Positions 7,841 through 57,978 of a DNA stretch of 64,000 nt are shown here, one piece after another (the stretch's first letter is position 1; every line of letters starts with the position of its first letter). Source of the DNA: an uncultured Clostridia bacterium (GTDB lineage: Bacteria > Bacillota > Clostridia > TANB77 > CAG-508). The notes beneath the pieces are model-generated. The model was not told the origin of the DNA. It saw only the letters and a list, made by a program, of their open reading frames with translations, and ran no database searches. Location of the stretch: the NCBI GenBank assembly GCA_947624195.1, contig CANQJH010000001.1:49233-113232 (forward strand). Reading direction: 5' to 3'. The position numbers and the translations under genes were made by a program.

Positions 7841-7871
7841 TAGTACAACTTTCAAGAAAGTTGTATATAAA

Positions 7872-7900
7872 ATGTCGTTAAGTAATGTACTTAACGACAT
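7872..7900 (+). terminator. palindromic hairpin followed by a T-rich run
   Basis: atgtcgttaagta-atg-tacttaacgacat followed by ttttatata; a related hairpin occurs at 9571..9598. Confidence 0.4.
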
Positions 7901-8033
7901 TTTATATACGTATTTTATACTAAAAAATAAACAAAATCAAGATATAAAAAAATTTTTTTATATAAATAAAATTTAAAATATAAAAAGTTCGCAAAGTGTT
8001 GATTTTAAAAGCTAATCTCCGAAAAATAAATTA

Positions 8034-8056
8034 TCATTAAGTACATTACTTAATGA
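8034..8056 (+). promoter_or_regulatory. perfect inverted repeat (10-bp arms, 3-bp spacer) 27 nt upstream of the start codon
   Basis: tcattaagta-cat-tacttaatga; the same arms recur at 9731..9753 upstream of the paralog. Confidence 0.5.
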
Positions 8057-8082
8057 TAAAAATTTGAGAGGAGCAAAAGATA

Positions 8083-9399
8083 ATGAAAAACAAAGGAATA
8101 ACACTAGTTGCGCTAGTAGTAACAATAGTAATTATGTTAATTTTGGCAGGGGTAACATTGAGATTAGCTTTAGGGGAAAATGGATTGTTTAATATATCAA
8201 AACAATCAGTTGAAAAGTATGAGGAATCAGTCCAAAACGAAGAAGAAGAATTAGATGAATTACTAGAAGAATTAAAGCATATAATGCCAGAAGAGGCAGG
8301 AAAAGAGGTAGAAGTACCAAAAGCAGAGAAAGATAAGTGGGATTTAACAAAAGTAACACCAACAGCAGACGGAAAAGGAAATACAATACCAGTACCAAAA
8401 AATTTTTATTATGTAGGAGGAGATAAAGACTCAGGATTTGTAATATCAAGTGTAAGTGGAGATGATCTAAACAATAGTAAAAAAGGTAATGAATTTGTAT
8501 GGGTACCAGTAAAAGTTATAAATGATATGGTAATGTGTAAGGAACATACAACAGCTACAATTACTTTTGATGGAGTAAATTTTTCTTGTGATGGAAATGG
8601 ACACCCACATACACCGAACAAAGAATACTTGGTAGGACAACTTTATACTCCGACTACGGATAATGGATTTACTGCAGGAATACCATATACAGAATATAAT
8701 GAAAACATAATAAGGGAACCAGGATTGACAACAGTGGATACAGATGAAAATTTATCTAATTTTTTACAGACTACATCAAATGAATTTTTACAGGAGTTAC
8801 AAGAAGAATTTTATAAAATGGCAAAAAGTGTAGCAAAATATGGAGGATTTTATATAGGCAGATATGAAACATCAGGTTTAAATGACGGCGAGGAACCAAA
8901 AGTACAATCGGGACTAGTACCAACGGGAAACATTAACTGGTATACAATCTACAAAAATAGTAAAAAAATAGCCCAAGAAGGTTCAAATGTAACAAGTAGT
9001 ATGATATGGGGAAGTCAATGGGACTATGTACTAAATTGGATGCAAGACATAGAAAATCCAACATTGACAGAAGAAAAGAAATATTACATTATGGACAGTA
9101 GAGGAATGGGTTGGTATTATGGAGAAACAGGAAACAATGAGCATAAAACAGGAATAGATTTGATAAAGGACGGAAAAGTAACCAATAAAGAAAAAAATAT
9201 TTATGATTTTGCAGGAAATTTTGAGGAATTAAATATGGCTTGCTCGGGCGGTACAGTACGTGCTTTACGTGGAGGATCTTATAAGCTGGAGGGAAATGTT
9301 CGTCCTGCTTGTAACCTTCGACTGGTAAGACCTGACGCTATATATGAGTGGGTTAGTAGTCGAGTTACACTTTGTATAAACTTGAATCCGGGGGAGTAA
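8083..9399 (+). CDS. pilin-like-anchored surface protein with a C-terminal FGE-sulfatase/C-type-lectin-like domain; candidate DGR target 1
   Basis: N-terminus KGITLVALVVTIVIMLILAGV resembles a type IV prepilin signal but lacks F+1 and E+5; a coiled-coil stalk follows. The C-terminal motifs IYDFAGNFEE, RGGSY and RLVR match the FGE-sulfatase fold. The 3' end is GC-rich and A-depleted. Confidence 0.8.
   Translation: MKNKGITLVALVVTIVIMLILAGVTLRLALGENGLFNISKQSVEKYEESVQNEEEELDELLEELKHIMPEEAGKEVEVPKAEKDKWDLTKVTPTADGKGNTIPVPKNFYYVGGDKDSGFVISSVSGDDLNNSKKGNEFVWVPVKVINDMVMCKEHTTATITFDGVNFSCDGNGHPHTPNKEYLVGQLYTPTTDNGFTAGIPYTEYNENIIREPGLTTVDTDENLSNFLQTTSNEFLQELQEEFYKMAKSVAKYGGFYIGRYETSGLNDGEEPKVQSGLVPTGNINWYTIYKNSKKIAQEGSNVTSSMIWGSQWDYVLNWMQDIENPTLTEEKKYYIMDSRGMGWYYGETGNNEHKTGIDLIKDGKVTNKEKNIYDFAGNFEELNMACSGGTVRALRGGSYKLEGNVRPACNLRLVRPDAIYEWVSSRVTLCINLNPGE
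9235..9396 (+). other. putative DGR variable-region-like patch in target 1
   Basis: Local GC far above the window background, depleted in A, with rare codons (TCG, GGC, CGT, CGA); coincides with the last beta-strands of the lectin-like fold. Confidence 0.45.
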
Positions 9400-9426
9400 C
9401 TTGATAGGTTCAAACTTATTTTTAAA

Positions 9427-9452
9427 CCAGAGCAGTTAGAGAGCTGCTCTGG
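9427..9452 (+). other. GC-stem hairpin just downstream of target 1, with no U-tract
   Basis: ccagagcagttagagagctgctctgg followed by gttgttgatg; positioned like a DGR VR-flanking hairpin rather than an intrinsic terminator. Confidence 0.45.
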
Positions 9453-9566
9453 TTGTTGATGATACAGTCAAATGAAAAAATATAAACGGAATAAAAGAAT
9501 TTCAATTATAGGAGAAATATTAGATAAAATAAATAATATTATAAAAAAATAAATTAAAAATTGTTA

Positions 9567-9783
9567 AATTGTCGTTAAGTAATATACTTGACGATATATT
9601 CATATATGTATTTTATACTAAAAAATAAACAAAATCAACACTTTATATAATTTTCTTTTTGAAATAAAATTGAAAATATAAAAAATCTGTAAAGTGTTGA
9701 TCCTCAAGACTAATCTCCACAAATAAATTATCATTAAGTATATTACTTAATGATAAAAATAAAAAATTGGAGAGGTGCGGAAG
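9567..9783 (+). repeat. duplicated 5' regulatory region (copy 2), including the operator-like palindrome at 9731..9753
   Basis: Homologous to 7870..8082; contains tcattaagta-tat-tacttaatga. Confidence 0.7.
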
Positions 9784-11076
9784 ATGATGAAAAACAAAGG
9801 AATAACACTAGTTGCTTTAGTAGTAACAATAATAATTATGTTAATTTTAGCAGGGGTGACATTAAATATTGCTTTAGGTGATAACGGATTAATAAAGCAA
9901 ACAAAAAAAGCAGCGGATTTAGCAAAAGAGTCTATGAAAAATGAGGAAGAAGATGTAGGAAAACTAGTTAATCAATTAGATGAAGTAATAAAAGAAAGTT
10001 TACCAAGTACAGTAAAAGAAGCAATAGAAACAGAAGAAATATTTACAGTTAATAAGAAAATAACGGATGAAAGTGGAAAAACAATGGTAGTACCAAAAGG
10101 CTTTAAAGTAATAGAAGAAACTAATATAGATAGTGGCGTAGTCATAGCAGACGGAGAAGGTAATGAGTTTGTATGGGTACCATGTGAAGATGGTGAATAT
10201 AAAAAACATGTATATGATGTAAAACAAATAGATGATGCTACTACTACTTTAGCTGATGGAGTAAACAAAGAAAAAGGTTGGACTACATTACAGTATAGAA
10301 AATATAGTGATTGGAAAGATGAAGTAGATGAAGTGGCAAATATAAAAAGTGTGGAAGATAATAAAGGATTTTATATAGCGAGATATGAAGCGGGTGTACC
10401 CAAGAATGCAGATTTTTATGTAGAGGCTTCTGCTGAAGGAGTTAAAAATAAAAATTATCCACAAAGTAAAAATGATATAAGTGATAATATAAAGCCAGTA
10501 AGTAAAAAAGGAGTGCAAACATGGAATTTAATAAGTCAAATAAATGCTAAAACCGTATCCGAAAGAATGTATAGCGGAGAATCTTACGGAGTAAGAAGTC
10601 AACTAGTAGATGGAACTGCATGGGACACTGCCGTAACATGGATGTCAAAAGAGTACGTAGGAATAGAAAAAAATAGTACAAATTATGGAAATTATAATAA
10701 CACACCTACAAAAGAAATAACAGGCTTATATGCAGCACATACTTATAGTGATGGTTGGCAATTAGCAACAAGTTATGGTTATGGAAAAAAAAGTATAGGT
10801 GGAAGAAGTAGTTTGAGAACTGAAATAGCGACAGGCTTAGTAAATGAGTTTAAACTAAAAAACATATATGATATGGCTGGAAATATGTATGAATGGACTA
10901 CAGAATATGGATATCATGATGGTGGAACCAGCAGTACAAAATATGTTGTTCAGCGAGGAGGATGTCCTACTGACGATGGTGGTGTCCACCCAGTTTCTGT
11001 TCGTAGTGGCTATTGGGCAGAAACGGTAGAAAATAATCCTGTATTTGGTTTTCGAGTTGTACTTTATGTAAAATAA
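9784..11076 (+). CDS. pilin-like-anchored protein with a C-terminal FGE-sulfatase-like domain; candidate DGR target 2, paralog of target 1
   Basis: Same N-terminal KNKGITLVALVVTIIIMLILAGV anchor and stalk. C-terminus carries IYDMAGNMYEWT, QRGGC and GFRVV. The ORF track starts at a GTG at 9775; the ATG at 9784 has a better RBS. Confidence 0.8.
   Translation: MMKNKGITLVALVVTIIIMLILAGVTLNIALGDNGLIKQTKKAADLAKESMKNEEEDVGKLVNQLDEVIKESLPSTVKEAIETEEIFTVNKKITDESGKTMVVPKGFKVIEETNIDSGVVIADGEGNEFVWVPCEDGEYKKHVYDVKQIDDATTTLADGVNKEKGWTTLQYRKYSDWKDEVDEVANIKSVEDNKGFYIARYEAGVPKNADFYVEASAEGVKNKNYPQSKNDISDNIKPVSKKGVQTWNLISQINAKTVSERMYSGESYGVRSQLVDGTAWDTAVTWMSKEYVGIEKNSTNYGNYNNTPTKEITGLYAAHTYSDGWQLATSYGYGKKSIGGRSSLRTEIATGLVNEFKLKNIYDMAGNMYEWTTEYGYHDGGTSSTKYVVQRGGCPTDDGGVHPVSVRSGYWAETVENNPVFGFRVVLYVK
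10920..11073 (+). other. possible variable-region-like 3' segment of target 2 (weaker composition signal)
   Basis: Moderately GC-enriched relative to the gene body; homologous in position to the patch in target 1 but with a codon indel relative to it. Confidence 0.3.
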
Positions 11077-11296
11077 ATTCTACCACTTTTGTAGTAAGAT
11101 GGAAGATTAAATGATTTTGGAGAGTTTTATATAGTGGAAGTGAAGAAAAACCATGGAGAAAGGGCAAGAATATCCAATACGGAGCCTTTAAGTTATTTTG
11201 ATAAAAATTAAAAAAATTGGCAAAATATGATAAAAAATGTTGCTAATTTTGCTATTAAGTTGTATAATCATTTAAATTACGTAAAGGAGAAACAAT

Positions 11297-11731
11297 TTGG
11301 AGAAATTAAACTTAGCAACAATAAATAAGGCTCATAGTAAAAACATAAAAATAGGTGAATTAAATGAGCAAGTTATAGAATTATTAAAATTAGATTTAAA
11401 ACCACAGAATATTAATATTTGGTCATCCAGATTAAAAGAACATTGTGAAAAACACAAAGATGAATACTCTAGTGTAAATGCATATAATCAAGCAATAAGA
11501 TTTATTCCGGAGATAATTAAAAATCCAGATTATGTTGGATTACATAGAAATGGTAATATTCAGTATGTAAAAAAGTTAGAAGACATATCTTTAGTCGGAA
11601 TACAAATTTTAAAAGGTAGTGGGCACTTATTATTTAGAACAATTTTCCCAATTTCAGAAACAAAGTTGAAAAAATCTGTAAGAAGTGGAAAGCTAATAGA
11701 ATTTAAAAATAAACAAAGAGAAAATACATAA
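11297..11731 (+). CDS. hypothetical protein, 144 aa
   Basis: Intact ORF whose 3' end is duplicated at 7740..7840; no family recognised with confidence. Confidence 0.5.
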   Translation: MEKLNLATINKAHSKNIKIGELNEQVIELLKLDLKPQNINIWSSRLKEHCEKHKDEYSSVNAYNQAIRFIPEIIKNPDYVGLHRNGNIQYVKKLEDISLVGIQILKGSGHLLFRTIFPISETKLKKSVRSGKLIEFKNKQRENT

Positions 11732-12148
11732 AGTATTTCCTCTTTTTAATTTTGGTTAATAGGTAGGACGGCGTACCCTACATCTACTTATAAGACCATC
11801 TCTGGCGTGATAGCTGCCACTTTCTATCCTCAATTAACCTACTATGAGTGTACTCATAATTTTAAAAATTATGCATTACCTATATGTAAATATATTACAA
11901 AAATCTCAATAAGTCAATAGGTTTTAATTATTTTTTACAATTGTTGAACTAATTATAACTATATTTTAACATATTATTATAATTATGTCAACGGCTAAGA
12001 TATAGAATTTTTTCGTTTGTGCCTTTTTTTACTTTTTAATTGTAAAAAAATTTACATACTTTATTTTAATATTCGCCTCACTTTAAATTATTTTTTGTTT
12101 TTTTGCTCCTTTCTATATTTTACCAGTACAAGATGACACAATCTCCCT

Positions 12149-12571
12149 GTGATAACTTTACATAATTTTTATGACTTTTTTATGCAACTAAACTCCTTAT
12201 ATTTTTTTCCTTATTTTTTATATGTCCTTTTGCCATTGTTAACATCACTACAAACGTTAAACTTAGCATTAAATTCATTTTCTTCAATCCTCGTATGGGA
12301 AAATAATTGGGATAATATTCAACCATTTTTCAAATATGGACCACAGACAAGAAAAATAATGTATACAACAAATGCGATTGAGAGTCTAAATAATTGTTAT
12401 AAAAGATTAAATAAAGGAAGACGAGTATTTCCAACGATTCAAGCACTAGAAAAAAGCATGTATTTATCAACTCAAATGATTATTGAAAAATGGACTAGCA
12501 GATATGCGAACTGGGGCGTAACATTGGCAGAATTAAATATTTATTTTCCAGATAGGGTAAATATAGATTAA
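12149..12571 (+). pseudogene. IS256-family transposase, C-terminal fragment only
   Basis: Residues IMYTTNAIESLNNCYKRLNKGRRVFPT...KWTSRYANWGVTLAELNIYFPDRV match the conserved C-terminus of IS256/mutator-type transposases. The catalytic N-terminal two-thirds are absent and the upstream part of the ORF is nonsense. Confidence 0.75.
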
Positions 12572-12833
12572 AAGAAAAAAGGCATAATTTAAGCCTGCTA
12601 AAATTTGCATTTTAGTAGGCTCAAAAATCATACCTTGACAAATGGAAATTTGTCGATTATATTAATTTTAGTAAAAAACATAAATAAATTTTTTCATATT
12701 TATGTTTAATATCATAAGAAGTTTAAAGTTTACACAAACTTTACGATACTCTCATCAAAATAGAATTTGAGTTTTATCAAATAAAAATATCATTTGTAAA
12801 GTAACATTAGTTATTTTGCTATTAAAATGCAAA

Positions 12834-12867
12834 ATATCGTCAAGCAAAGCAAATTACTTGACGATAT
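12834..12867 (-). terminator. uvrB intrinsic terminator (bidirectional hairpin)
   Basis: atatcgtcaag...cttgacgatat stem 3 nt after the uvrB stop, followed by a T-run on both strands. Confidence 0.6.
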
Positions 12868-12870
12868 TTT

Positions 12871-14826
12871 TTATTTAAAATTTTCCAATTCTTTAATTTT
12901 ATCTCTAACTTCTGCAGCCTTTTCAAATTCTAAGTTTTGAGCATAATTAATCATTTCATTTGTCAATCTATTAATTGCATCTTCCAAAGACTCATCTTTG
13001 TTAATAATAGAAGAACTTTTATCTTCAACTTCATAAGTAGCTTTAATTGTCTCTCTAATTTCTTTTTGAATAGTTTTAGGAGTTATATTGTTTTTTATGT
13101 TGTATTCTTCTTGAATTTTTCTTCTTCTATTTGTTTCAGATATAGCTCTATCCATTGATTCGGTAAGTTCATCTGCATACATTATAACTTTGCCGTCAGT
13201 ATTTCTAGCTGCTCTTCCTATGGTTTGTACTAAAGATCTTTCTGAACGTAAAAATCCTTCTTTATCAGCGTCTAAAATTGCAACAAGTGAAACTTCTGGT
13301 ATATCTAATCCCTCTCTTAAAAGGTTTATACCTACTAGTACATCAAACTTTCCTAAACGTAAATCTCTTATTATTTCCATCCTCTCTAGGGCTTTAATGT
13401 CTGAGTGCATATATCTCACTTTTATATCTAATCCAGCTAAGTATTTGGTTAAATCTTCTGCCATTTTTTTAGTTAAAGTTGTGACTAATACTCTTTCATT
13501 TTTCTTTGTTCTTTCGGTAATTTCTGCTATTAAATCATCAATTTGATTTTCAACAGGTTTAACTTCGATTTTAGGGTCAAGTAATCCGGTAGGACGTATA
13601 ATTTGTTCAACAACTCTATCTTTAGAGTGTTCTCTTTCATATTCTGCAGGAGTAGCACTTACGAAAATTGCTTGATTTATTCTTTGTTCAAATTCTTCGA
13701 ATTTTAAAGGTCTATTGTCAAATGCTGAAGGTAATCTAAATCCATATTCGACTAAAGTTTCTTTTCTTGCTCTGTCTCCATTATACATTGCTCTTACTTG
13801 TGGTATGGTGGCATGTGATTCGTCAACTAAAAGCAAAAAATCTTTAGGAAAATAATCAAATAGGGTAAAAGGGCTACTTCCGGGTTCTCTGCCACTGATA
13901 TGTCTTGAATAGTTTTCTATTCCTTGACAAAAACCAGTTTCTCTCATCATCTCTAAATCAAAGTTTGTTCTTTCTTCAATTCTTTGTGCTTCAAGTAATT
14001 TACCTTTTGCTTTAAAATAATTTATTCTTTCCTCTAATTCTTGCTGTATAGTAGTTATGGCTCTTTCCATTTTATCCTCTGTAGTAACATAGTGTGAATT
14101 AGGGAAAATCATAACATGGCTTCTAGTTCCTGCAATTTTTCCGGTTAGAGGATTAATTGCTTCAAGTTTTTCTATTTCATCACCCCAAAAGCTAACTCTA
14201 ATTGCAGTTTCACTTTCGTCAGATGGATAGATTTCTACAACGTCACCTTTGGCTCTGAAAGTTCCTCTTTTGAAATCTAATTCATTTCTGTTATATTGTA
14301 AGCTGATTAATTTTCTTAACAGTTCGTTTCTTTCTTTTTGCATACCAGGTCTTAGAGAAATAATCATATTTTCGTAATCAATAGGGTCTCCTAATCCATA
14401 TATACATGAAACAGAGGCAACAACTATAACATCTCTTGTTTCAAATAGGGAAGCTGTGGCTGAGTGCCTTAATTTATCTATTTCATCATTAATAGAAGCG
14501 TCTTTTTCTATGTAAGTATCAGAAGATGGGACATAAGCTTCTGGCTGGTAATAATCATAATATGATACAAAGTATTCAACATTATTTTCTGGAAAAAACT
14601 CTTTGAATTCACTATATAATTGTCCAGCTAATGTTTTATTGTGTGCTAAAACAAGAGTAGGCTTTTGTACTTGCTCTATGATATTGGCCATTGTAAAAGT
14701 TTTTCCGCTTCCAGTTACACCAAGCAAAGTCTGGAATTTCTTGCCGTCTTTGACTCCGTTACTCAAATATTCTATTGCCTGTGGCTGGTCCCCAGTCGGT
14801 TTGTAATTTGATACTAATTTGAACAT
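12871..14826 (-). CDS. uvrB: excinuclease ABC subunit B
   Basis: Walker A GVTGSGKT, helicase motifs, and a C-terminal UVR domain ([13 protein letters not shown]). The ATG at 14826 has an RBS; the ORF track extends to a TTG at 14841. Confidence 0.9.
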
Positions 14827-20388: not shown

Positions 20389-20598
20389 AAAAATTATTAT
20401 TAATTATATAGTTTAATAATAAATTTTTTCACTTAAAGTATATGGTATTAAAATATTTTTGTCAATACTATGTTGATAAAAATTTTTTTATTTTTTTCAT
20501 CAAAATAATTCAAAAAGCCTGATATAACTGTGAAACAAGTATTTTTAAATTATTATTAAACTATATATTTAATAATAAATAAAAAATAGGAGGAAACC
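20389..20598 (+). repeat. 5' regulatory region of target gene 3, duplicated (about 95% identity) upstream of target gene 4
   Basis: Near-identical to 24787..24994 down to the RBS (ataggaggaaaccatg). Confidence 0.8.
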
Positions 20599-21807
20599 AT
20601 GGAAAAACAAAAGAAACAAGGAATTTTGAACATTAAAAACAGTAAAGGTATAACGTTAGTAGCATTAGTAATAACCATAATAATAATGCTAATATTAGCA
20701 GGGGTGGCATTAAGACTAGCATTAGGAGAAAATGGTTTATTTAAAATGTCAGAGAAAGCAGTAGAGAAGTATAAAGAGGAAGCAGCAAAGGAAGAAAATA
20801 CACTAGGGAATATGGAAAAACAACTAAAGTACATGATAGAGGGCTATGTGCCAGACAGAAGTATGCTAAAAGTAGGAGATGAAGTAAATTATACGCCCCA
20901 AACGGCAAAAACGACATATACTTTAGAAGGTAACAAAAGTGGATACGGAGACTATACAAGTAGTAAACCTAAAACAATGACAAAAGCAACAGACCAAGAA
21001 ATAAGTCAAGAGAATTATACATGGAAGATAATGGACATAAATAGTAAAACAGGAGAAGTAAAAATAATGGGCGTACCAACAAGTAGTATGCCTACAGTAT
21101 ATTTCAAAGGAGCATTAGGATATAACAATGGAGTATATCTTTTGGATGATATATGTAAAACATTATATAGTAATAGTGACTTGGGAGTAACAGCAAGAAG
21201 TATAGATATAGAAGATATTGAAAGTAAAATGAATGACAAAGGAAGAGATGCAAAAAATGATTATATATCAGAAAATCAAACAACCAAAGAATTTAACGGA
21301 AGTAATGCATATTACCCTAACATATATAAATATCAACAAGATTCAAATATAGATGGAACAGAAAAGACAGAAGGAATAAGTGAAAGTGATGATGGAACAA
21401 AAACAGAAGCAGGAATACCAATTGAGCATGCAACAAATGTAGAAGGATATACACAAGCAGAAACAAGTATCACAGTAAAAGGAACATACTATTATGCAAC
21501 GCAAAATGCAGGATATTTTGATGATGAAGACTTTTACAATTTAATGTTTAAAACAGGTACATATTATTGGCTTGCTTCGCGTTATTCTGGTTGCTTCTCG
21601 AGTAGCTCTTGTGCTGACTTTGGGCTTCGCATTGTGGCCAGCTCTAGCATCAACGGTTACAAAATGTTCAATTCGGATGGCGATTACGACGACGACAATA
21701 TTCGCGTTTGCCCGGTAGTTTCTCTAGGGGCTAATATCCAAATCACAAGAGATGGAAACGCAGGAGCATGGGACTTATCGAAGGACCCAAATTTTGGTGG
21801 ATTTTAA
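20599..21807 (+). CDS. pilin-like-anchored protein with a C-terminal DUF1566/Fib_succ-major-like (C-type-lectin superfamily) domain; candidate DGR target 3
   Basis: N-terminus KGITLVALVITIIIMLILAGV plus an ALGENGLFKMSEKAVEKYKEE stalk shared with the other three targets. The C-terminus has YYW...NIRVCPVVSL resembling the YWSS...VRCVR motif of DUF1566. Confidence 0.75.
   Translation: MEKQKKQGILNIKNSKGITLVALVITIIIMLILAGVALRLALGENGLFKMSEKAVEKYKEEAAKEENTLGNMEKQLKYMIEGYVPDRSMLKVGDEVNYTPQTAKTTYTLEGNKSGYGDYTSSKPKTMTKATDQEISQENYTWKIMDINSKTGEVKIMGVPTSSMPTVYFKGALGYNNGVYLLDDICKTLYSNSDLGVTARSIDIEDIESKMNDKGRDAKNDYISENQTTKEFNGSNAYYPNIYKYQQDSNIDGTEKTEGISESDDGTKTEAGIPIEHATNVEGYTQAETSITVKGTYYYATQNAGYFDDEDFYNLMFKTGTYYWLASRYSGCFSSSSCADFGLRIVASSSINGYKMFNSDGDYDDDNIRVCPVVSLGANIQITRDGNAGAWDLSKDPNFGGF
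21561..21735 (+). other. putative DGR variable-region-like patch in target 3 (strongest composition signal)
   Basis: The first ~90 nt contain roughly 10% A by hand count, against roughly 35-40% A in flanking coding sequence. Dense TGC/TCG/CGC/GGC codons; the composition falls back to normal about 80 nt before the stop. Confidence 0.5.
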
Positions 21808-21810
21808 ATG

Positions 21811-21840
21811 CGCCTTGGAGGCCTTAGGTCTCCAGGCGAC
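21811..21840 (+). other. GC-stem hairpin 3 nt after the target 3 stop, with no U-tract
   Basis: gcgccttggag-gccttaggt-ctccaggcgac followed by taaagagg. Confidence 0.45.
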
Positions 21841-21957
21841 TAAAGAGGGTGATTAAAATAAGTATAATAACAATAGTTAAAGAATTGAAAAAAAATAGTG
21901 ATTTTATTTTCGAAGAAAAGTTAAAAATCACTATTTTTGTTTTATTGTAGATATTGA

Positions 21958-24786: not shown

Positions 24787-24994
24787 AAAATTATTATTAA
24801 TTATATAGATTAATAATAAATTTTTTCACTTAAAGTATATGGTATTAAAATATTTTTGTCAATACTATGTTGATAAAAATTTTTTTATTTTTTTCATCAA
24901 AATAATTCAAAAAGCCTGATATAACTGTGAAACAAGTATTTTTAAATTATTATTAAACTATATATTTAATAATAAATAAAAATAGGAGGAAACC
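24787..24994 (+). repeat. duplicated 5' regulatory region (copy 2) upstream of target gene 4
   Basis: See 20389..20598. Confidence 0.8.
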
Positions 24995-25981
24995 ATGAAA
25001 AAACAAAAGAAAGAAAACAAGTTCAACTTAAAAGAACAAGGTATAACGCTAGTTGCGTTAGTAGTAACAATAATAATACTTTTAATCTTAGCAGGAGTAA
25101 CAATCAACATAGCTTTAAGGGAAAATGGATTATTTAAAATGTCAGAGAAAGTAGTAGAGAAGTATAAGGAAGAAGCAGGAAAGGAAGAGGAAACATTACA
25201 GGATTTAGAACAACACATAAAAAATAATACACCCGTTGAACCAGCAGAAGAACCTAAAGAGCCTATAGGAAAAACACCGTATGTAGGATATTATGCAAGT
25301 AGAGATGGAATAACAGTAGATGGAATAATATATGCAGACCAAGCAGTAGGAAATACAAACGGAACAAAATGGAGTGATGGTGATGGAACCTACACAATAC
25401 CAATAAAAGAAGAAGGCTTAAAGGAATACTATATAAGTCAAGAATCATACACAACAGAAGCCTTTGGACCAAAACCTGTGTTAACACCAATAAATGATGA
25501 AGGAGAAGACAGATTTTATATCATGTCACTTGAAGATTTTGGAGGAAAAGGACAAAGTTATTATTGGTATTATAGCGCATTTAAAAATATGAGTGATTAT
25601 AGTACAGCAACATCAACAAAATTTGGAACTGGAAAAACCAATACAGAGAACATGGTAGCAAAGTGGACGGCGGGAGAAAGTGAAGATGGTTATGGAAAGC
25701 AAGATGGGGGAAGCACATATAAAGATATATGGGGATACTTTTCAAGAAAAGAAATACCAGAAGGATGGTTTTTACCATCAAGAGGAGAATTAGCAGCATT
25801 TATGCAAGAATTAGGGATAAACAGCAGTAATTATTCTAATCAATTTCAATTATCTAGTTATTACTGGTCGTCGTCGCAGTTCAATTTTAACTACGCATGG
25901 CTCGCGTACATGCTTATTGGTTGTATGAGCAGCTACACTGTGAATTACGGCCGCTGCGTGCGCCTGAGTGCGACTTTCTGA
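24995..25981 (+). CDS. pilin-like-anchored protein with a C-terminal DUF1566-like domain; candidate DGR target 4, immediately upstream of the RT
   Basis: N-terminus QGITLVALVVTIIILLILAGV and a conserved stalk. The C-terminus SSYYWSSSQFNFNYAWLAYMLIGCMSSYTVNYGRCVRLSATF fits the YWSS...AW...R.VRCVR signature. Confidence 0.75.
   Translation: MKKQKKENKFNLKEQGITLVALVVTIIILLILAGVTINIALRENGLFKMSEKVVEKYKEEAGKEEETLQDLEQHIKNNTPVEPAEEPKEPIGKTPYVGYYASRDGITVDGIIYADQAVGNTNGTKWSDGDGTYTIPIKEEGLKEYYISQESYTTEAFGPKPVLTPINDEGEDRFYIMSLEDFGGKGQSYYWYYSAFKNMSDYSTATSTKFGTGKTNTENMVAKWTAGESEDGYGKQDGGSTYKDIWGYFSRKEIPEGWFLPSRGELAAFMQELGINSSNYSNQFQLSSYYWSSSQFNFNYAWLAYMLIGCMSSYTVNYGRCVRLSATF
25855..25978 (+). other. putative DGR variable-region-like patch at the extreme 3' end of target 4
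   Basis: Roughly 18% A by hand count over ~120 nt. Contains TCG-TCG-TCG, GCG, CGC, GGC and CTG codons that are rare elsewhere in this AT-rich genome. Confidence 0.5.
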
Positions 25982-26004
25982 TTTTGTAAAAAATCAGAAA
26001 AATA

Positions 26005-26075
26005 TAGGCCTACATTATGTAAATAATGTAGGCAATTCAAACCGAGATATTCTTCGTAAGAAGAAACTCGGTTTG
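26005..26075 (+). other. two consecutive stem-loops between target 4 and the RT, neither followed by a U-tract
   Basis: taggcctacatt...aatgtaggc (26005..26033) and caaaccgag...ctcggtttg (26038..26075), the latter with a nested ttcttcgtaagaagaa palindrome. Confidence 0.5.
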
Positions 26076-26178
26076 AATTAAAAGGATTAGATTGATAAAA
26101 GGAAATTTATTATAGAAAATGCGAGTTTCATTATATTAAGTTTAAATACTCTTCTTATGAAGAGTATTTTTATAAGAG

Positions 26179-27321
26179 GTGTATATGGATAATAAGCTAA
26201 CTTTTGAAGATTTATATGAAGCATATAATTTATGTTTAAAAAATAAAAAAAATAAAATAGGAACATATAATTTTGTAAACTATAATTTATGCAAAAATTT
26301 AATGGAGCTACTAGAAGAATTAAATAATAAACAATACATTCAAAGACAATCTAATTGTTATGTAGTTAAGGATCCAGCATTGAGAGAAATATATGCAGCT
26401 CAATTTTTTGACAGAGTAGTACAGCATTTTTATATGAAAGAAGTAGAACATATTTTAGAAGAACAATTAGTTGACGGTTGTTGTTCATGTAGAAAAAATA
26501 AAGGTAATGATTATGCTCTTCAATTATTAAAGAAATATCTTAAAGTAGTATCGAATAATGGGAAAAAAGACTGTTACTTTCTTAAAATTGATTTATCTGG
26601 ATATTTTATGTCAATAGATAGAAAGCAAATAAGTCAAAAGTTCTTAAATCTTATAAGCAATAAATATAAAGGACCATATAAAGAATTACTCATTTATTTA
26701 ACTCCAATTATATTTGAAAATAATCCGGCAGTGAACTGTAAGTATAAATGTAATGAAAAAGTAAGAAACCTAGTACCTGAAAGAAGAAAAATGAATCCGA
26801 AATCCGATTATGGAATGGCTATAGGTAATTTGACTTCTCAGGCAGGTAGCAATTTTAATCTCAGTGAATTTGATAATTACGTTGTATATAAACTAAATCT
26901 AGTTAATTATATTAGATATGTTGACGATATGGTGATAATTTCAAATAATAAACAAGAGTTACAAAATGCAATGCCGTATATAATAAATAAACTTAAAGAA
27001 ACTAATCAATCTATAAGTGAAAAGAAAACTAAAATAGATACTGCGTATCATGGAGTACCATTTTTGGGAAAAGTTTCTTTTCCATACGGTTATCAAAAAG
27101 CTAAAAAATCGACAATAGTGAGAGTATATAAAAGGGGTAGAGAAATTAGATATAAGGACACAGACAATTTATTAGCAAAAACAAATTCGCAAATTGGATT
27201 GCTAAAAGGATATAACTGCAGAAAACTAATATTAAATTATTCTAAAATTATACAAAACAAAACGGGAGACGAAATTTATTTGAATGAAGAAATGTTAAAA
27301 TTTTGTAAAAAGAATAAATAA
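26179..27321 (+). CDS. diversity-generating retroelement reverse transcriptase
   Basis: RT motifs ALREIYAAQFFDRVVQH (motifs 1/2), LKIDLSGYFMSIDRK (motif 3), AIGNLTSQ (the DGR-specific GxxxSQ motif 4) and YVDDMVII (motif 5). The likely start is the ATG at 26185 with an aagagg RBS; the track begins at a GTG at 26179. Confidence 0.85.
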   Translation: MYMDNKLTFEDLYEAYNLCLKNKKNKIGTYNFVNYNLCKNLMELLEELNNKQYIQRQSNCYVVKDPALREIYAAQFFDRVVQHFYMKEVEHILEEQLVDGCCSCRKNKGNDYALQLLKKYLKVVSNNGKKDCYFLKIDLSGYFMSIDRKQISQKFLNLISNKYKGPYKELLIYLTPIIFENNPAVNCKYKCNEKVRNLVPERRKMNPKSDYGMAIGNLTSQAGSNFNLSEFDNYVVYKLNLVNYIRYVDDMVIISNNKQELQNAMPYIINKLKETNQSISEKKTKIDTAYHGVPFLGKVSFPYGYQKAKKSTIVRVYKRGREIRYKDTDNLLAKTNSQIGLLKGYNCRKLILNYSKIIQNKTGDEIYLNEEMLKFCKKNK

Positions 27322-27411
27322 AGCTTGTTATATAGGAAAAATAAATAAATAGAAAAAATTGTAACAATACAATACCTCACTACATAAATTAATGTAGGAG
27401 GTATTTTTATA

Positions 27412-28338
27412 ATGTATGATGATTATTTTAAAAATATAATTGGTGGAAGTATAAAGTCTCCAGAATACTATGTTTCTACATATGATAACCATACTTATCA
27501 GCCTAGACAAGTAAGTGCTCTTCCAGGATACAATTATTCTGCCGATACAAATTTTAATGACAATGACATTGAAGATTTATATCCAGATATTTATAAAATT
27601 GTATCCCCAATGGTAGATAAACTTTTAGACGGAAAAACTTTTGATAATGTAAATGAAGACATGTTGGTAAAATGGACTGTGGAAATCTATGATGCTCTTG
27701 AAGTTGATGATGATAATACCAAATTAGTAAATGATAATGTTGCTAAAACTGGCAGTAGTGTTATTTCTAATGGTACTAGTAGATCAAATGTAAATCAAGG
27801 AGTTGCAGGTAATAGTAGCAATAATACTATAAGACCTGGCTCTAACTATGAAAGTGAAACTACTAGCGCAAGGACTGCACAGAGAACGGTGCTATCTAAT
27901 ACAGTTGCAAATACACCTTCTAATACTATGACTAAAGCGGGAATAACTACACCTTCTTCTACAATAAGTAGTACAGCGGTCAATACATCATCTAATTCGA
28001 TAACTAATACAGGAGTAAGCGCATCACCTAATACAGTAAATAATGCAACAGTCAATGCAATATCTAATTCTACAACAAATAAAGAACCAAAAGTGGTTGA
28101 TGTAGTAAGTAGATATAGAAATTATAAAAATCCGCTTCTAAGGGATTTAATAAGAATATTGATTTTAAATAAATTATATGGAAATCGTAGACCGCCAAGA
28201 GGTATGCCAAGACCTTATCAAGACTTTGAACCAACATTTATTCCTATGCCAGATTATAGTAGTGTAAACACAGAAGTTTATAAACCTTATACTAATTATT
28301 CTAAAGCTTACTTAGACACACCTTATCCAGAAGAATAA
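27412..28338 (+). CDS. hypothetical protein with an S/T/N-rich low-complexity core and a Pro/Tyr-rich C-terminus
   Basis: The RBS is embedded in a hairpin (cctcactacat...atgtaggagg). The middle third is repetitive SNT/ANT; possibly a spore-coat-like structural protein. Confidence 0.45.
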   Translation: MYDDYFKNIIGGSIKSPEYYVSTYDNHTYQPRQVSALPGYNYSADTNFNDNDIEDLYPDIYKIVSPMVDKLLDGKTFDNVNEDMLVKWTVEIYDALEVDDDNTKLVNDNVAKTGSSVISNGTSRSNVNQGVAGNSSNNTIRPGSNYESETTSARTAQRTVLSNTVANTPSNTMTKAGITTPSSTISSTAVNTSSNSITNTGVSASPNTVNNATVNAISNSTTNKEPKVVDVVSRYRNYKNPLLRDLIRILILNKLYGNRRPPRGMPRPYQDFEPTFIPMPDYSSVNTEVYKPYTNYSKAYLDTPYPEE

Positions 28339-57477: not shown

Positions 57478-57607
57478 ACCTTCTTTTTGATAGTATTATA
57501 TAAGTAAAGCACCTTACAGCTTATCATTTTATCATAAATTTACACATATATCAAGTTTTTAGGCAAATAAAAAATGTAAAGTTTTTGCACTTTACATTTA
57601 TAGTAAA

Positions 57608-57940
57608 TCTATAAGCCGGGTTCTGTCTAGAATGGTCATTTATCTAGGATATATATTGCTATATACCTCAAGCCACCAAATTTAGAGGACGACGAGCAGT
57701 CTTAACCCTCTAGTCTCGGTGTTGCTCCAGATGGGGTTTACACGGCTAGATGTATCACTACATCTACGGTGAGCTCTTACCTCGCCTTTTCACCCTTACC
57801 ATTTACATGGCGGTTATTTTCTGTTGCACTTTCCTTAAGGTTACCCTCACTTGACGTTATCAAGCATCCTTGCTCTACGGAGCCCGGACTTTCCTCATAC
57901 GCTGCCTTTCGGCCTTGCAATACGCGACCATTTAACTTAC
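57608..57940 (-). ncRNA. rnpB: RNase P RNA
   Basis: Minus-strand sequence contains GAGGAAAGTCCGGGCTCC, GGTAAGGGTGAAAAGGCGAGGTAAGAGCTCACC and the 3' ACAGAACCCGGCTTA. A hairpin plus T-run terminator follows. The track ORFs 57769..57960 and 57777..57977 are spurious. Confidence 0.8.
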
Positions 57941-57978
57941 TAAATTTAATTATACAATGATTTGCGTGCTTTGTCAAA

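What the first reader, a model, noticed from the sequence alone, without database searches (positions are those of the whole stretch)
25982..26178. GC-stem hairpins without U-tracts immediately downstream of three candidate variable regions
Hairpins at 9427..9452, 21811..21840 and 26005..26075 start 3-30 nt after the stop codons. They have 8-10 bp GC-rich stems and are not followed by T-runs, so they are poor intrinsic terminators. DGR variable regions in Bordetella phage and Legionella are flanked by such hairpin or cruciform elements, which enhance target recognition.
Basis: partly seen in the sequence, partly recalled or inferred. Interest (0 to 1): 0.6.

Follow-up and report, generated by a model that had tools for sequence, protein, structure and literature searches.

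The report
Triple hairpins beside a decayed DGR
The short gap between a pilin-like gene and a reverse transcriptase gene holds three conserved hairpins that mark the target end of a diversity-generating retroelement, a known kind of system, but this copy has lost its template repeat and is a relic.

Summary
Window 25982-26178 is the remnant of a DGR's VR-to-RT interval. Gene T4 (24995-25981) ends in a real adenine-mutagenised variable region. Each has a 4-nt G-T-N-A loop. Across 14 related loci 97% of cells pair and 20 of 30 pairs show compensatory changes. G-U pairs are almost absent and both strands fold equally, which fits a DNA hairpin or cruciform like the Bordetella phage element. The stems are AT-rich and there are three, so this is a variant of that element.

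Relatives carry a 153-aa accessory gene and a ~125-nt template repeat between H2 and the RT. The window keeps only the last 10 nt of the repeat, plus a terminator-like RNA hairpin (H3, 26144-26169). No template repeat exists anywhere in the 64 kb. An intact relative shows five variable-region alleles in eight samples, whereas this locus is invariant.

The hairpins after T1 and T3 are real and unusually strong, but they are of a different type and have no template repeat. Their DGR role is unproven.

The parts
24995..25981 (+). T4: pilin-like DGR target gene (328 aa). It has an N-terminal prepilin-like hydrophobic segment and a C-terminal Lcl_C/DUF1566-like domain.
   Evidence: ORF. Pfam Lcl_C at E 0.0024, below the curated cutoff; the L003 homologue gives Lcl_C at 2.6e-5 and N_methyl at 0.018. 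Homologues lie directly upstream of the RT in L002-L010.
25854..25978 (+). Former variable region (VR) of T4. It ends in GACTTTC, where every TR in the family ends in GAGTTTC.
   Evidence: Codon-by-codon match to the AAC-rich TRs of relatives. Changed at 19 of 36 invariant TR adenines against 4 of 41 invariant non-A positions. GC-rich patch at 25884-25984. The sequence is identical in all contigs that carry this locus.
25975..26000 (+). H0: 11-bp AT-rich stem (TTTCTGATTTT / AAAATCAGAAA) with a GTAA loop. It overlaps the last 4 nt of the VR and the TGA stop codon.
   Evidence: DNA fold -8.7 kcal/mol, z -5.9. Helix 1 is 100% paired, with 5 of 7 pairs showing compensatory change.
26008..26033 (+). 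H1: 11-bp stem (GCCTACATTAT / ATAATGTAGGC) with a GTAA loop. The core TTAT-GTNA-ATAA is conserved.
   Evidence: -10.3 kcal/mol, z -6.7. Helix 2 is 96% paired, with 5 of 9 pairs compensatory.
26034..26079 (+). H2: composite hairpin. A 13-bp outer stem and an A-rich 5' bulge surround a 6-bp inner stem, TTCTTC-GTAA-GAAGAA.
   Evidence: -13.1 kcal/mol, z -5.8. Helices 3-5 are 92-99% paired, with 10 of 14 pairs compensatory.
26080..26119 (+). Deletion junction. These ~40 nt have no detectable homology to relatives, which carry about 700-900 nt here (accessory ORF, a structured spacer and the TR).
26120..26129 (+). TGCGAGTTTC: the last 10 nt of the lost template repeat.
   Evidence: Aligns to the 3' end of the TR in every relative.
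26130..26178 (+). TR-to-RT spacer. It holds H3 (26144-26169, 11-bp stem, TTAT loop), a T-run, and the ribosome-binding site AAGAGG.
   Evidence: z -9.2. The hairpin is conserved in 12 loci. It has 25 G-U in 168 pairs on the + strand against 2 in 142 on the - strand, so it is an RNA-level, terminator-like element.
26185..27321 (+). Intact DGR-type reverse transcriptase (378 aa from the ATG) with IGNLTSQ and YVDD motifs.
   Evidence: Pfam RVT_1 at 5e-15. The best solved-structure match is 8ub7, at 6.6e-18. Gene callers use the ATG at 26185. The family has 488 members at E <= 1e-20.
9425..9454 (+). T1 hairpin. It is not part of the T4 module and its function is unresolved.
   Evidence: z -6.8. 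The covariance model does not match it. The closest T1 homologues are only 42% identical.
21810..21840 (+). T3 hairpin (GC-rich, bulged, 3-nt loop). It is not part of the T4 module and its function is unresolved.
   Evidence: z -3.5. It is kept in the 82%-identity homologue L022 but absent from L021 and L019. A canonical terminator follows at 21883-21946.

Best explanation
Window 25975-26178 is what remains of the interval between the variable region and the reverse transcriptase of a diversity-generating retroelement.

In intact relatives the order is:
1. pilin-like target gene ending in the VR;
2. three tandem stem-loops (H0, H1, H2), each with a 4-nt G-T-N-A loop on the sense strand, starting inside the last 4 nt of the VR;
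3. a 153-aa accessory gene;
4. a structured spacer;
5. an AAC-rich TR of about 125 nt;
6. a terminator-like RNA hairpin (H3);
7. the RT.

Shown here: the three stem-loops are maintained by compensatory change, they are strictly Watson-Crick on both strands, and they sit at the 3' boundary of a VR that diversifies at TR adenines in nature.

Inferred: they act as DNA structures. These could be hairpins on the transiently single-stranded sense strand (the lagging-strand template here) or an extruded cruciform. They would mark the recipient copy and raise the efficiency of cDNA integration at the VR 3' end, as shown experimentally for the single GC-rich hairpin of Bordetella phage BPP-1. Three AT-rich hairpins may stand in for one GC-rich stem in a 30% GC genome.

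In this genome a deletion removed the accessory gene and all but the last 10 nt of the TR. The intact RT therefore has no template for this VR, the VR is frozen, and the hairpins are a still-perfect relic.
For: The locus is a DGR.
- The RT has the IGNLTSQ and YVDD motifs, matches RVT_1, and its best solved-structure match is 8ub7.
- All of L001-L009, L015 and L017 have a TR about 50 nt upstream of the RT; L001-L009 also hold a matching VR at the end of the T4 homologue.
- The window VR is changed at 19 of 36 invariant TR adenines against 4 of 41 non-A positions, much like intact relatives.

The family is active in nature.
- In eight contigs with identical RT, TR and hairpins there are five VR alleles. 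Of 43 variable columns, 42 lie at TR adenines. The flanks differ at 0-2 positions.

The hairpins are real and selected.
- z is -12.1 for the 114-nt array.
- 97.4% of cells pair, 20 of 30 pairs carry compensatory changes, 0 of 500 shuffles reach the observed values, and slid controls pair at 40-47%.
- There is exactly one copy per locus, always at the VR end.
- All 48 loops read GTNA: 47 by pattern match, and H0 of L010 read directly from the sequence.

The signature points to DNA rather than RNA.
- G-U pairs number 6 of 523 on the + strand and 15 of 536 on the - strand, and the two strands fold about equally well.
- The neighbouring H3 has 25 of 168 on + against 2 of 142 on -. Fisher p = 2e-11.

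Literature.
- DGR targets carry a hairpin/cruciform with a 4-nt G..A loop, 4-34 bp from the VR. Stem structure matters but stem sequence does not (PMC3240598).
- The stem-loop boosts homing but is not essential, and targets co-directional with replication are favoured (PMC12875486). T4 lies on the + strand in a region of positive GC skew.

The deletion is real.
- The VR-to-RT gap is 197 nt here against about 690-985 nt in relatives.
- The TR remnant and H3 align to relatives.
- There is no TR in the 64 kb.
- The locus is identical in contigs from four samples.
Against: - No experiment shows hairpin or cruciform formation, or an effect on homing, in this family.
- The loops are GTNA, not the published GRNA. 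The stems are AT-rich, and in BPP-1 converting GC pairs to AT pairs reduced function (PMC3240598).
- The array stays perfectly paired in this TR-less locus and stays paired in the TR-less L010. That could mean a TR-independent role, or simply recent deletions.
- L009 lacks half of H1 and all of H2 yet keeps a TR.
- The four samples with an identical VR may come from one cohort, so 'frozen VR' is weakly supported.
- A cognate TR outside the 64 kb cannot be excluded.
Confidence: 0.65

Rival explanations
1. H0-H2 act in RNA. They would form the 3' end of the pilin-like mRNA, as a U-tract-less terminator, a processing or stabilising structure, or an insulator from the downstream accessory-TR-RT transcript. 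They would have no role in retrohoming.
For: They begin at the stop codon. GUAA and GUGA are GNRA-type tetraloops, which are stable in RNA (my own knowledge). The array is perfectly paired in the TR-less window locus and remains paired in the TR-less L010, as expected if it served the target gene itself.
Against: - No U-tract follows any of the three hairpins.
- G-U pairs are almost absent (1.1%), against 15% in the adjacent, clearly RNA-level H3.
- The antisense strand folds about as well as the sense strand.
- GUUA and GUCA loops, 13 of 48, are not GNRA.
- The module occurs only after T4-type VRs, not after the paralogues T1-T3.
Confidence: 0.2
2. The palindromes are binding sites for a sequence-specific protein, such as a regulator or the family's 153-aa accessory protein, and are read as duplex DNA operators.
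For: Parts of the sequence are invariant: the loops GTNA, the H1 core TTAT/ATAA, and the H2 inner stem CTTC/GAAG.
Against: Most stem positions change freely while complementarity is kept (75 compensatory cells). That is the signature of a folded structure, not of a duplex operator. The stems also differ in length between loci.
Confidence: 0.07
3. The T1 and T3 hairpins are target-site hairpins of other DGRs, now lost or lying outside the window, that diversify those paralogues.
For: - The T3 family shows DGR-like NNC/NNT codon scatter confined to YWLASR...RVCPVVSL.
- T1 and T2 have FGE-sulfatase-like ends and GC-rich 3' patches.
- T1 and T3 have the 1st and 3rd strongest post-stop hairpins of 44 genes, and neither has a T-run.
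- A T1 homologue, L023, has GAAACCC-GTAA-GGGTTTC 10 nt after its stop.
Against: - No TR was found for them in the window or in any held locus.
- No RT lies within 8-10 kb of the homologues examined.
- The loops are 3 nt or 8 nt, not 4-nt G..A.
- The hairpins sit about 50 and 87 nt from the ends of the VR-like segments.
- The T3 hairpin is absent from homologues at 75% and 68% identity.
- T2 has no hairpin at all (z +0.8).
Confidence: 0.25

Closest known systems
Hairpin/cruciform downstream of the VR and IMH in the Bordetella phage BPP-1 DGR and other phage DGRs (Guo et al. 2011, PMC3240598)
   Same: It is an inverted repeat directly 3' of the VR. The loop is 4 nt, with G first and A last on the sense strand. 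Stem structure is conserved while stem sequence varies. It is absent from the equivalent place after the TR. The VR and TR differ at their 3' ends (GACTTTC against GAGTTTC), much like IMH and IMH*.
   Different: There are three hairpins in tandem rather than one. The stems are 11-13 bp with 18-38% GC, rather than 7-10 bp and GC-rich. The second loop base is always T (GTNA, not GRNA). H0 overlaps the VR end and the stop codon. H2 is a two-tier stem with an A-rich bulge. No functional test exists for this family.
Canonical DGR cassette (target-VR, Avd, TR, RT)
   Same: The gene order is the same. The TR is AAC-rich, mutagenesis is adenine-specific, and the VR lies at the 3' end of a lectin-like domain.
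   Different: The window copy lacks the TR and the accessory gene. In relatives the accessory protein (153 aa) has no detectable similarity to Avd or to any family.
Intrinsic (Rho-independent) terminators
   Same: They are stable stem-loops just after a stop codon. H3 (26144-26169) fits this class: it has a T-run and sense-strand G-U pairs.
   Different: H0-H2 have no U-tract, almost no G-U pairs, and fold equally well on both strands.
DNA stem-loop targets of group IIC introns (discussed in PMC3240598)
   Same: A retroelement recognises a DNA stem-loop at its integration site.
   Different: Those stem-loops are terminators used as landmarks for intron insertion. Here nothing inserts; a homologous segment is replaced.

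Membership tests
Diversity-generating retroelement (DGR) | Reverse transcriptase of the DGR clade | tested here: met
   RVT_1 at 5e-15. The best solved-structure match is 8ub7, at 6.6e-18, which from my own knowledge is the Bordetella phage DGR RT. The IGNLTSQ motif is present; that [LIV]GxxxSQ is the DGR signature is also my own knowledge. Orthologues sit in complete DGRs.
Diversity-generating retroelement (DGR) | TR/VR repeat pair whose mismatches fall at TR adenines | tested here: not met
   No TR for T1-T4 exists on either strand of the 64 kb; only a 10-nt remnant survives at 26120-26129. The feature is met in relatives, and the window VR carries the adenine signature when compared with the family TR consensus.
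Diversity-generating retroelement (DGR) | Accessory gene (Avd or HRDC type) between the VR and the TR | tested here: not met
   There is no ORF in the 197-nt gap. Relatives have a 153-154-aa ORF with no Pfam, NCBIfam or PDB match.
Diversity-generating retroelement (DGR) | VR lies in a C-type-lectin-fold ligand-binding domain at the 3' end of the gene | tested here: inconclusive
   Lcl_C (DUF1566) scores E 0.0024 in T4 and 2.6e-5 in the L003 homologue, both below the Pfam cutoff. No structure was predicted.
DGR target hairpin/cruciform (Guo 2011) | Inverted repeat within about 4-34 bp downstream of the VR | tested here: met
   H0 overlaps the VR end. H1 starts 30 nt and H2 56 nt after the last VR base at 25978.
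DGR target hairpin/cruciform (Guo 2011) | 4-nt loop | tested here: met
   All 48 loops in 16 lineages are 4 nt long.
DGR target hairpin/cruciform (Guo 2011) | Loop consensus 5'-GRNA on the sense strand | tested here: not met
   Every loop reads G-T-N-A. The G and the A are kept, but the second base is T rather than a purine.
DGR target hairpin/cruciform (Guo 2011) | GC-rich stem of 7-10 bp | tested here: not met
   The stems are 11, 11 and 13+6 bp, with 2 of 11, 4 of 11 and 5 of 13 plus 2 of 6 G+C.
DGR target hairpin/cruciform (Guo 2011) | Stem structure, not stem sequence, is what is conserved | tested here: met
   97.4% of cells pair and 20 of 30 pairs carry compensatory change.
DGR target hairpin/cruciform (Guo 2011) | Forms in supercoiled DNA and raises homing efficiency | not testable with these tools
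   The only evidence is indirect: strand-symmetric Watson-Crick pairing.
Intrinsic terminator | Stem-loop followed by a U-tract | tested here: not met
   For H0-H2 the tails hold at most 2 T in 9 nt, and the scan reports no + strand site at H0-H2. H3 does meet the feature.

The most novel reading that the evidence does not exclude
The tandem array of three GTNA-looped hairpins is a distinct target-recognition platform. On this reading its loops are read sequence-specifically by this clade's unclassified 153-aa accessory protein, or by the RT, so a large gut and rumen Clostridia DGR clade would recognise its target differently from the Avd and GRNA-hairpin system of BPP-1. A second possibility is that the intact RT kept in this TR-less locus still serves the other VR-like pilin paralogues (T1-T3) from a template elsewhere in the genome.
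Probability: 0.2. Interest if true: 0.6.

Novelty: new variant of a known kind. Interest (0 to 1): 0.4.

Why it matters
How DGR cDNA finds and replaces its target is still unresolved. The only cis element known beyond sequence homology is the hairpin downstream of the VR, and it has been studied in one phage.

This family is widespread: 488 RT relatives at E <= 1e-20. It is demonstrably active in nature. Its recognition element is built differently, with three AT-rich hairpins, invariant GTNA loops and a non-Avd accessory protein. It also offers natural knock-outs: TR deletions, a RIT insertion in the RT gene, and a partial hairpin deletion. Together these give comparative material for asking which features of the hairpin matter.

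For this window itself the practical point is annotation. The RT and the VR look like a DGR, but the element cannot diversify T4.

Tried and rejected
- A blastn-based TR/VR detector found nothing even in loci that do have a TR/VR pair, so I discarded it. Adenine-tolerant sliding scans replaced it.
- Rfam gave no family at the site, either at gathering thresholds or at E <= 5.
- Two exact-pattern scans of IMG/VR found nothing, one for the T3 VR scaffold and one for H0. There is no evidence that the element is phage-borne.
- The metagenome scan added only 4 loci.
- The 40-nt deletion junction could not be matched to any part of the relatives' accessory gene.
- The T1 homologue search returned nothing closer than 42% identity, so conservation of the T1 hairpin could not be tested.
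- I rejected the repeated-element idea (REP or MITE). The T1 and T3 hairpin sequences are unique in the window, and the T4 module is single-copy per locus.
- A minus-strand terminator call at H1 was dismissed, because the A-run upstream of H1 is not conserved in relatives.

Full report
**Setting.** The window is AT-rich, about 30% GC. It carries four paralogous genes with a prepilin-like N-terminus: T1 8083-9399, T2 9775-11076, T3 20599-21807 and T4 24995-25981. Each has a locally GC-rich 3' end. Directly after T4 lies an RT gene, whose likely start is the ATG at 26185. It has the IGNLTSQ and YVDD motifs and matches RVT_1. Its best match among solved structures is 8ub7, which from my own knowledge is the Bordetella phage DGR RT. 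The finding's interval, 25982-26178, is exactly the gap between T4 and this RT.

**Checking the observation.** They start 3-27 nt after the stop codons and lack T-runs. Among 44 long ORFs, T1, T3 and T4 rank 1st, 3rd and 6th for the strongest hairpin just after a stop. The chance of three of the four pilin-like genes landing in the top six is p = 0.006, a post hoc figure.

Three corrections are needed:
- The T4 stems are not GC-rich.
- A third hairpin, H0 (25975-26000), overlaps the stop codon and was missed.
- A fourth hairpin, H3 (26144-26169), lies inside the stated interval and does have a T-run.

**No template repeat in the window.** Adenine-tolerant scans of the last 400 nt of T1-T4 against both strands of the 64 kb found no TR. 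The reason became clear from relatives.

**Relatives.** A scan of species-representative genomes with the RT returned ten loci from uncultured Clostridia MAGs, at 64-77% identity. A metagenome scan added four more. In these loci a T4 homologue sits upstream of the RT, but the gap is about 690-985 nt rather than 197 nt.

In L003 the order is:
1. a VR at the gene end;
2. hairpins;
3. a 154-aa ORF;
4. a spacer;
5. an AAC-rich TR;
6. the sequence GAGTTTCATTATA;
7. a hairpin with a T-run;
8. the RT.

The adenine-tolerant scan found one TR/VR pair in each of L001-L009. Every VR ends in GACTTTC and every TR ends in GAGTTTC.

**The window copy is a deletion derivative.** Downstream of the hairpins the window has about 40 nt with no homology to relatives. 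Then comes TGCGAGTTTC-ATTATATTAAG, which aligns to the last 10 nt of the TR plus the TR-RT spacer, and then H3 and the RT start. So the accessory gene and nearly the whole TR have been deleted.

This is not an assembly artefact. One search found eight contigs that carry the RT. The four fetched, from four samples, are 100% identical to the window, and the two that reach T4 show the same arrangement.

The T4 3' end is nevertheless a real former VR. At TR columns that are invariant across 11 relatives, it differs at 19 of 36 adenines but only 4 of 41 non-adenines. One of those four is the universal G-to-C difference. Relatives that align to these TR columns without indels show 15-23 of 36 and 1-4 of 41.

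**The family is active.** One relative RT, P0245, is 73% identical to the window's RT and occurs in at least 24 contigs. Across eight of these contigs the RT, the TR and the hairpin array are identical, and the flanks differ at 0-2 positions. The VR has five alleles. Of its 43 variable columns, 42 lie at TR adenines. The window locus shows no VR variation, although its samples may be related.

**Decay is recurrent in the family.**
- L010 has lost the TR and the 5' end of the RT gene.
- L018 fuses the start of the accessory ORF to about residue 19 of the RT, and the RT is truncated.
- The L007 RT is split by an element that carries three tyrosine recombinase genes.
- L009 has lost half of H1 and all of H2.

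**The hairpin array.** Every relative has the same three stem-loops, starting inside the last bases of the VR.
- RNAalifold recovers all three.
- A covariance model finds exactly one copy per locus and none after T1, T2 or T3.
- On the model alignment of 14 sequences, 97.4% of 416 cells pair and 20 of 30 pairs show compensatory changes, 75 cells in all.
- None of 500 shuffles reaches these values, and slid controls pair at only 40-47%.
- All 48 loops in 16 lineages read G-T-N-A on the sense strand.

**DNA or RNA?** G-U pairs are nearly absent from H0-H2: 6 of 523 pairs on the + strand and 15 of 536 on the - strand. The two strands fold with similar energy. The adjacent H3 has 25 of 168 G-U pairs on the + strand and 2 of 142 on the - strand, and it folds much better as the sense strand. 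The difference has p = 2e-11.

H3 therefore behaves like an RNA element, either a terminator or part of the TR RNA. H0-H2 behave like strand-symmetric Watson-Crick palindromes, which is what a DNA hairpin or cruciform requires. This is indirect evidence, not proof.

**Comparison with what is known.** Guo et al. 2011 (PMC3240598) showed several things for BPP-1:
- A hairpin/cruciform just downstream of the VR is needed for efficient homing.
- Stem structure matters, but stem sequence does not.
- Loop size (4 nt) and loop sequence are critical.
- Other phage DGRs have 7-10-bp GC-rich stems and 5'-GRNA loops, 4-34 bp from the VR.

Wu et al. (PMC5758913) note that the TR copy is not followed by such a repeat. 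A 2026 study (PMC12875486) confirms that the stem-loop boosts retrohoming without being essential. It also finds that targets co-directional with replication are favoured, because the strand complementary to the cDNA is then the lagging-strand template.

T4 lies on the + strand in a region of positive GC skew, so it has that favoured orientation; this is an inference. I therefore read H0-H2 as this clade's version of the target hairpin. It meets some defining features: position, the 4-nt G..A loop, and structure-not-sequence conservation. It fails others: GC-rich 7-10-bp stems and a purine at loop position 2. It is also triplicated. That makes it a variant of the known element, not a plain member.

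**T1 and T3.**
- T3 belongs to a large family. Close members differ by NNC/NNT codon scatter confined to YWLASR...RVCPVVSL, which looks DGR-like.
- The T3 hairpin lies about 87 nt beyond that segment.
- It has a 3-nt loop.
- It is present in an 82%-identity homologue but absent at 75% and 68% identity.
- It is followed by a canonical terminator.
- T1 has no homologue closer than 42% identity.
- No RT lies within 8-10 kb of the homologues examined.
- No TR for these regions exists in any locus I hold.
- T2 has no hairpin at all.

Their strength and the absence of a T-run are notable, but a DGR role is unproven.

**Verdict.** The main new facts are that the element here is a TR-less relic, and that its family uses a conserved triple array of GTNA-looped hairpins.

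Noticed in passing
window 11755-11838 (-): Rfam match to skipping-rope RNA (63 bits, E 7e-13). It lies next to a PBECR3 nuclease-like ORF (11297-11731) and a Mutator-family transposase fragment (12149-12571).
   Followed up: no
window 57596-57943 (-): Bacterial RNase P RNA, class A (289 bits). It accounts for the GC-rich patches at about 57.3-57.9 kb.
   Followed up: no
window 20390-20585 and 24787-24982: The 196 nt upstream of T3 and of T4 are 99% identical, although the genes have diverged. T1 and T2 likewise share upstream blocks (7901-8025 with 9599-9723, and 8024-8063 with 9721-9760). This suggests recent gene conversion or a shared promoter cassette for the pilin-like paralogues.
   Followed up: no
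window 7863-7909 and 12822-12879; L019 about 9810-9850 and 11250-11290: A long palindrome with the core TGTCGT(T/C)AAGTA recurs beside pilin-like genes, including in another genome's conjugative-element-like locus. In the window the copy at 7863-7909 is perfect (22 + 22 nt). The copy after uvrB is the 2nd strongest post-stop hairpin in the window.
   Followed up: partly
L007 10645-14090: The DGR RT gene is split after residue 216 by a 3.4-kb insert that encodes three tandem tyrosine recombinases, a 'recombinase in trio' type element. The L008 contig ends at the same RT residue.
   Followed up: partly
L010 1921-2860; L018 1796-2180; L009 7670-7740: These are independent decay events in the same DGR family. 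In L010 the TR and the 5' end of the RT gene are deleted. In L018 the accessory ORF is fused to about residue 19 of the RT, and its hairpins are beginning to mismatch. In L009 half of H1 and all of H2 are deleted.
   Followed up: partly
L003 9219-9683; L025-L035 (153-aa ORF): The accessory gene sits in the Avd position in relatives but has no Pfam, NCBIfam or PDB sequence match. It may be an unclassified DGR accessory protein.
   Followed up: partly
L003 9730-9800; L035 and L015, equivalent positions: A conserved, covarying stem lies between the accessory gene and the TR (TTGCTC...GAGCAA against TTGCCC...GGGCAA). It is probably a 5' structural element of the TR RNA. It is absent from the window.
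   Followed up: no
window 27364-27405: A strong hairpin with a T-run lies just after the RT stop codon and overlaps the ribosome-binding site of the next ORF. That ORF (27412-28338) encodes a 308-aa protein rich in N, S and T, with no family match.
   Followed up: no
window about 12-17 kb and about 49 kb: GC skew and gene strand flip together at these points. Skew is positive over 1-12 kb and 17-49 kb and negative elsewhere. The switch at 49 kb could be a replication terminus or an inversion boundary.
   Followed up: no
L019 (same sample as a window-identical contig): Three tandem pilin-like paralogues, of T2 type, unclassified and T3 type, lie inside what looks like an integrative conjugative element (T4SS coupling protein, integrase, ArdC, PcfJ). 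No RT lies within 10 kb.
   Followed up: no
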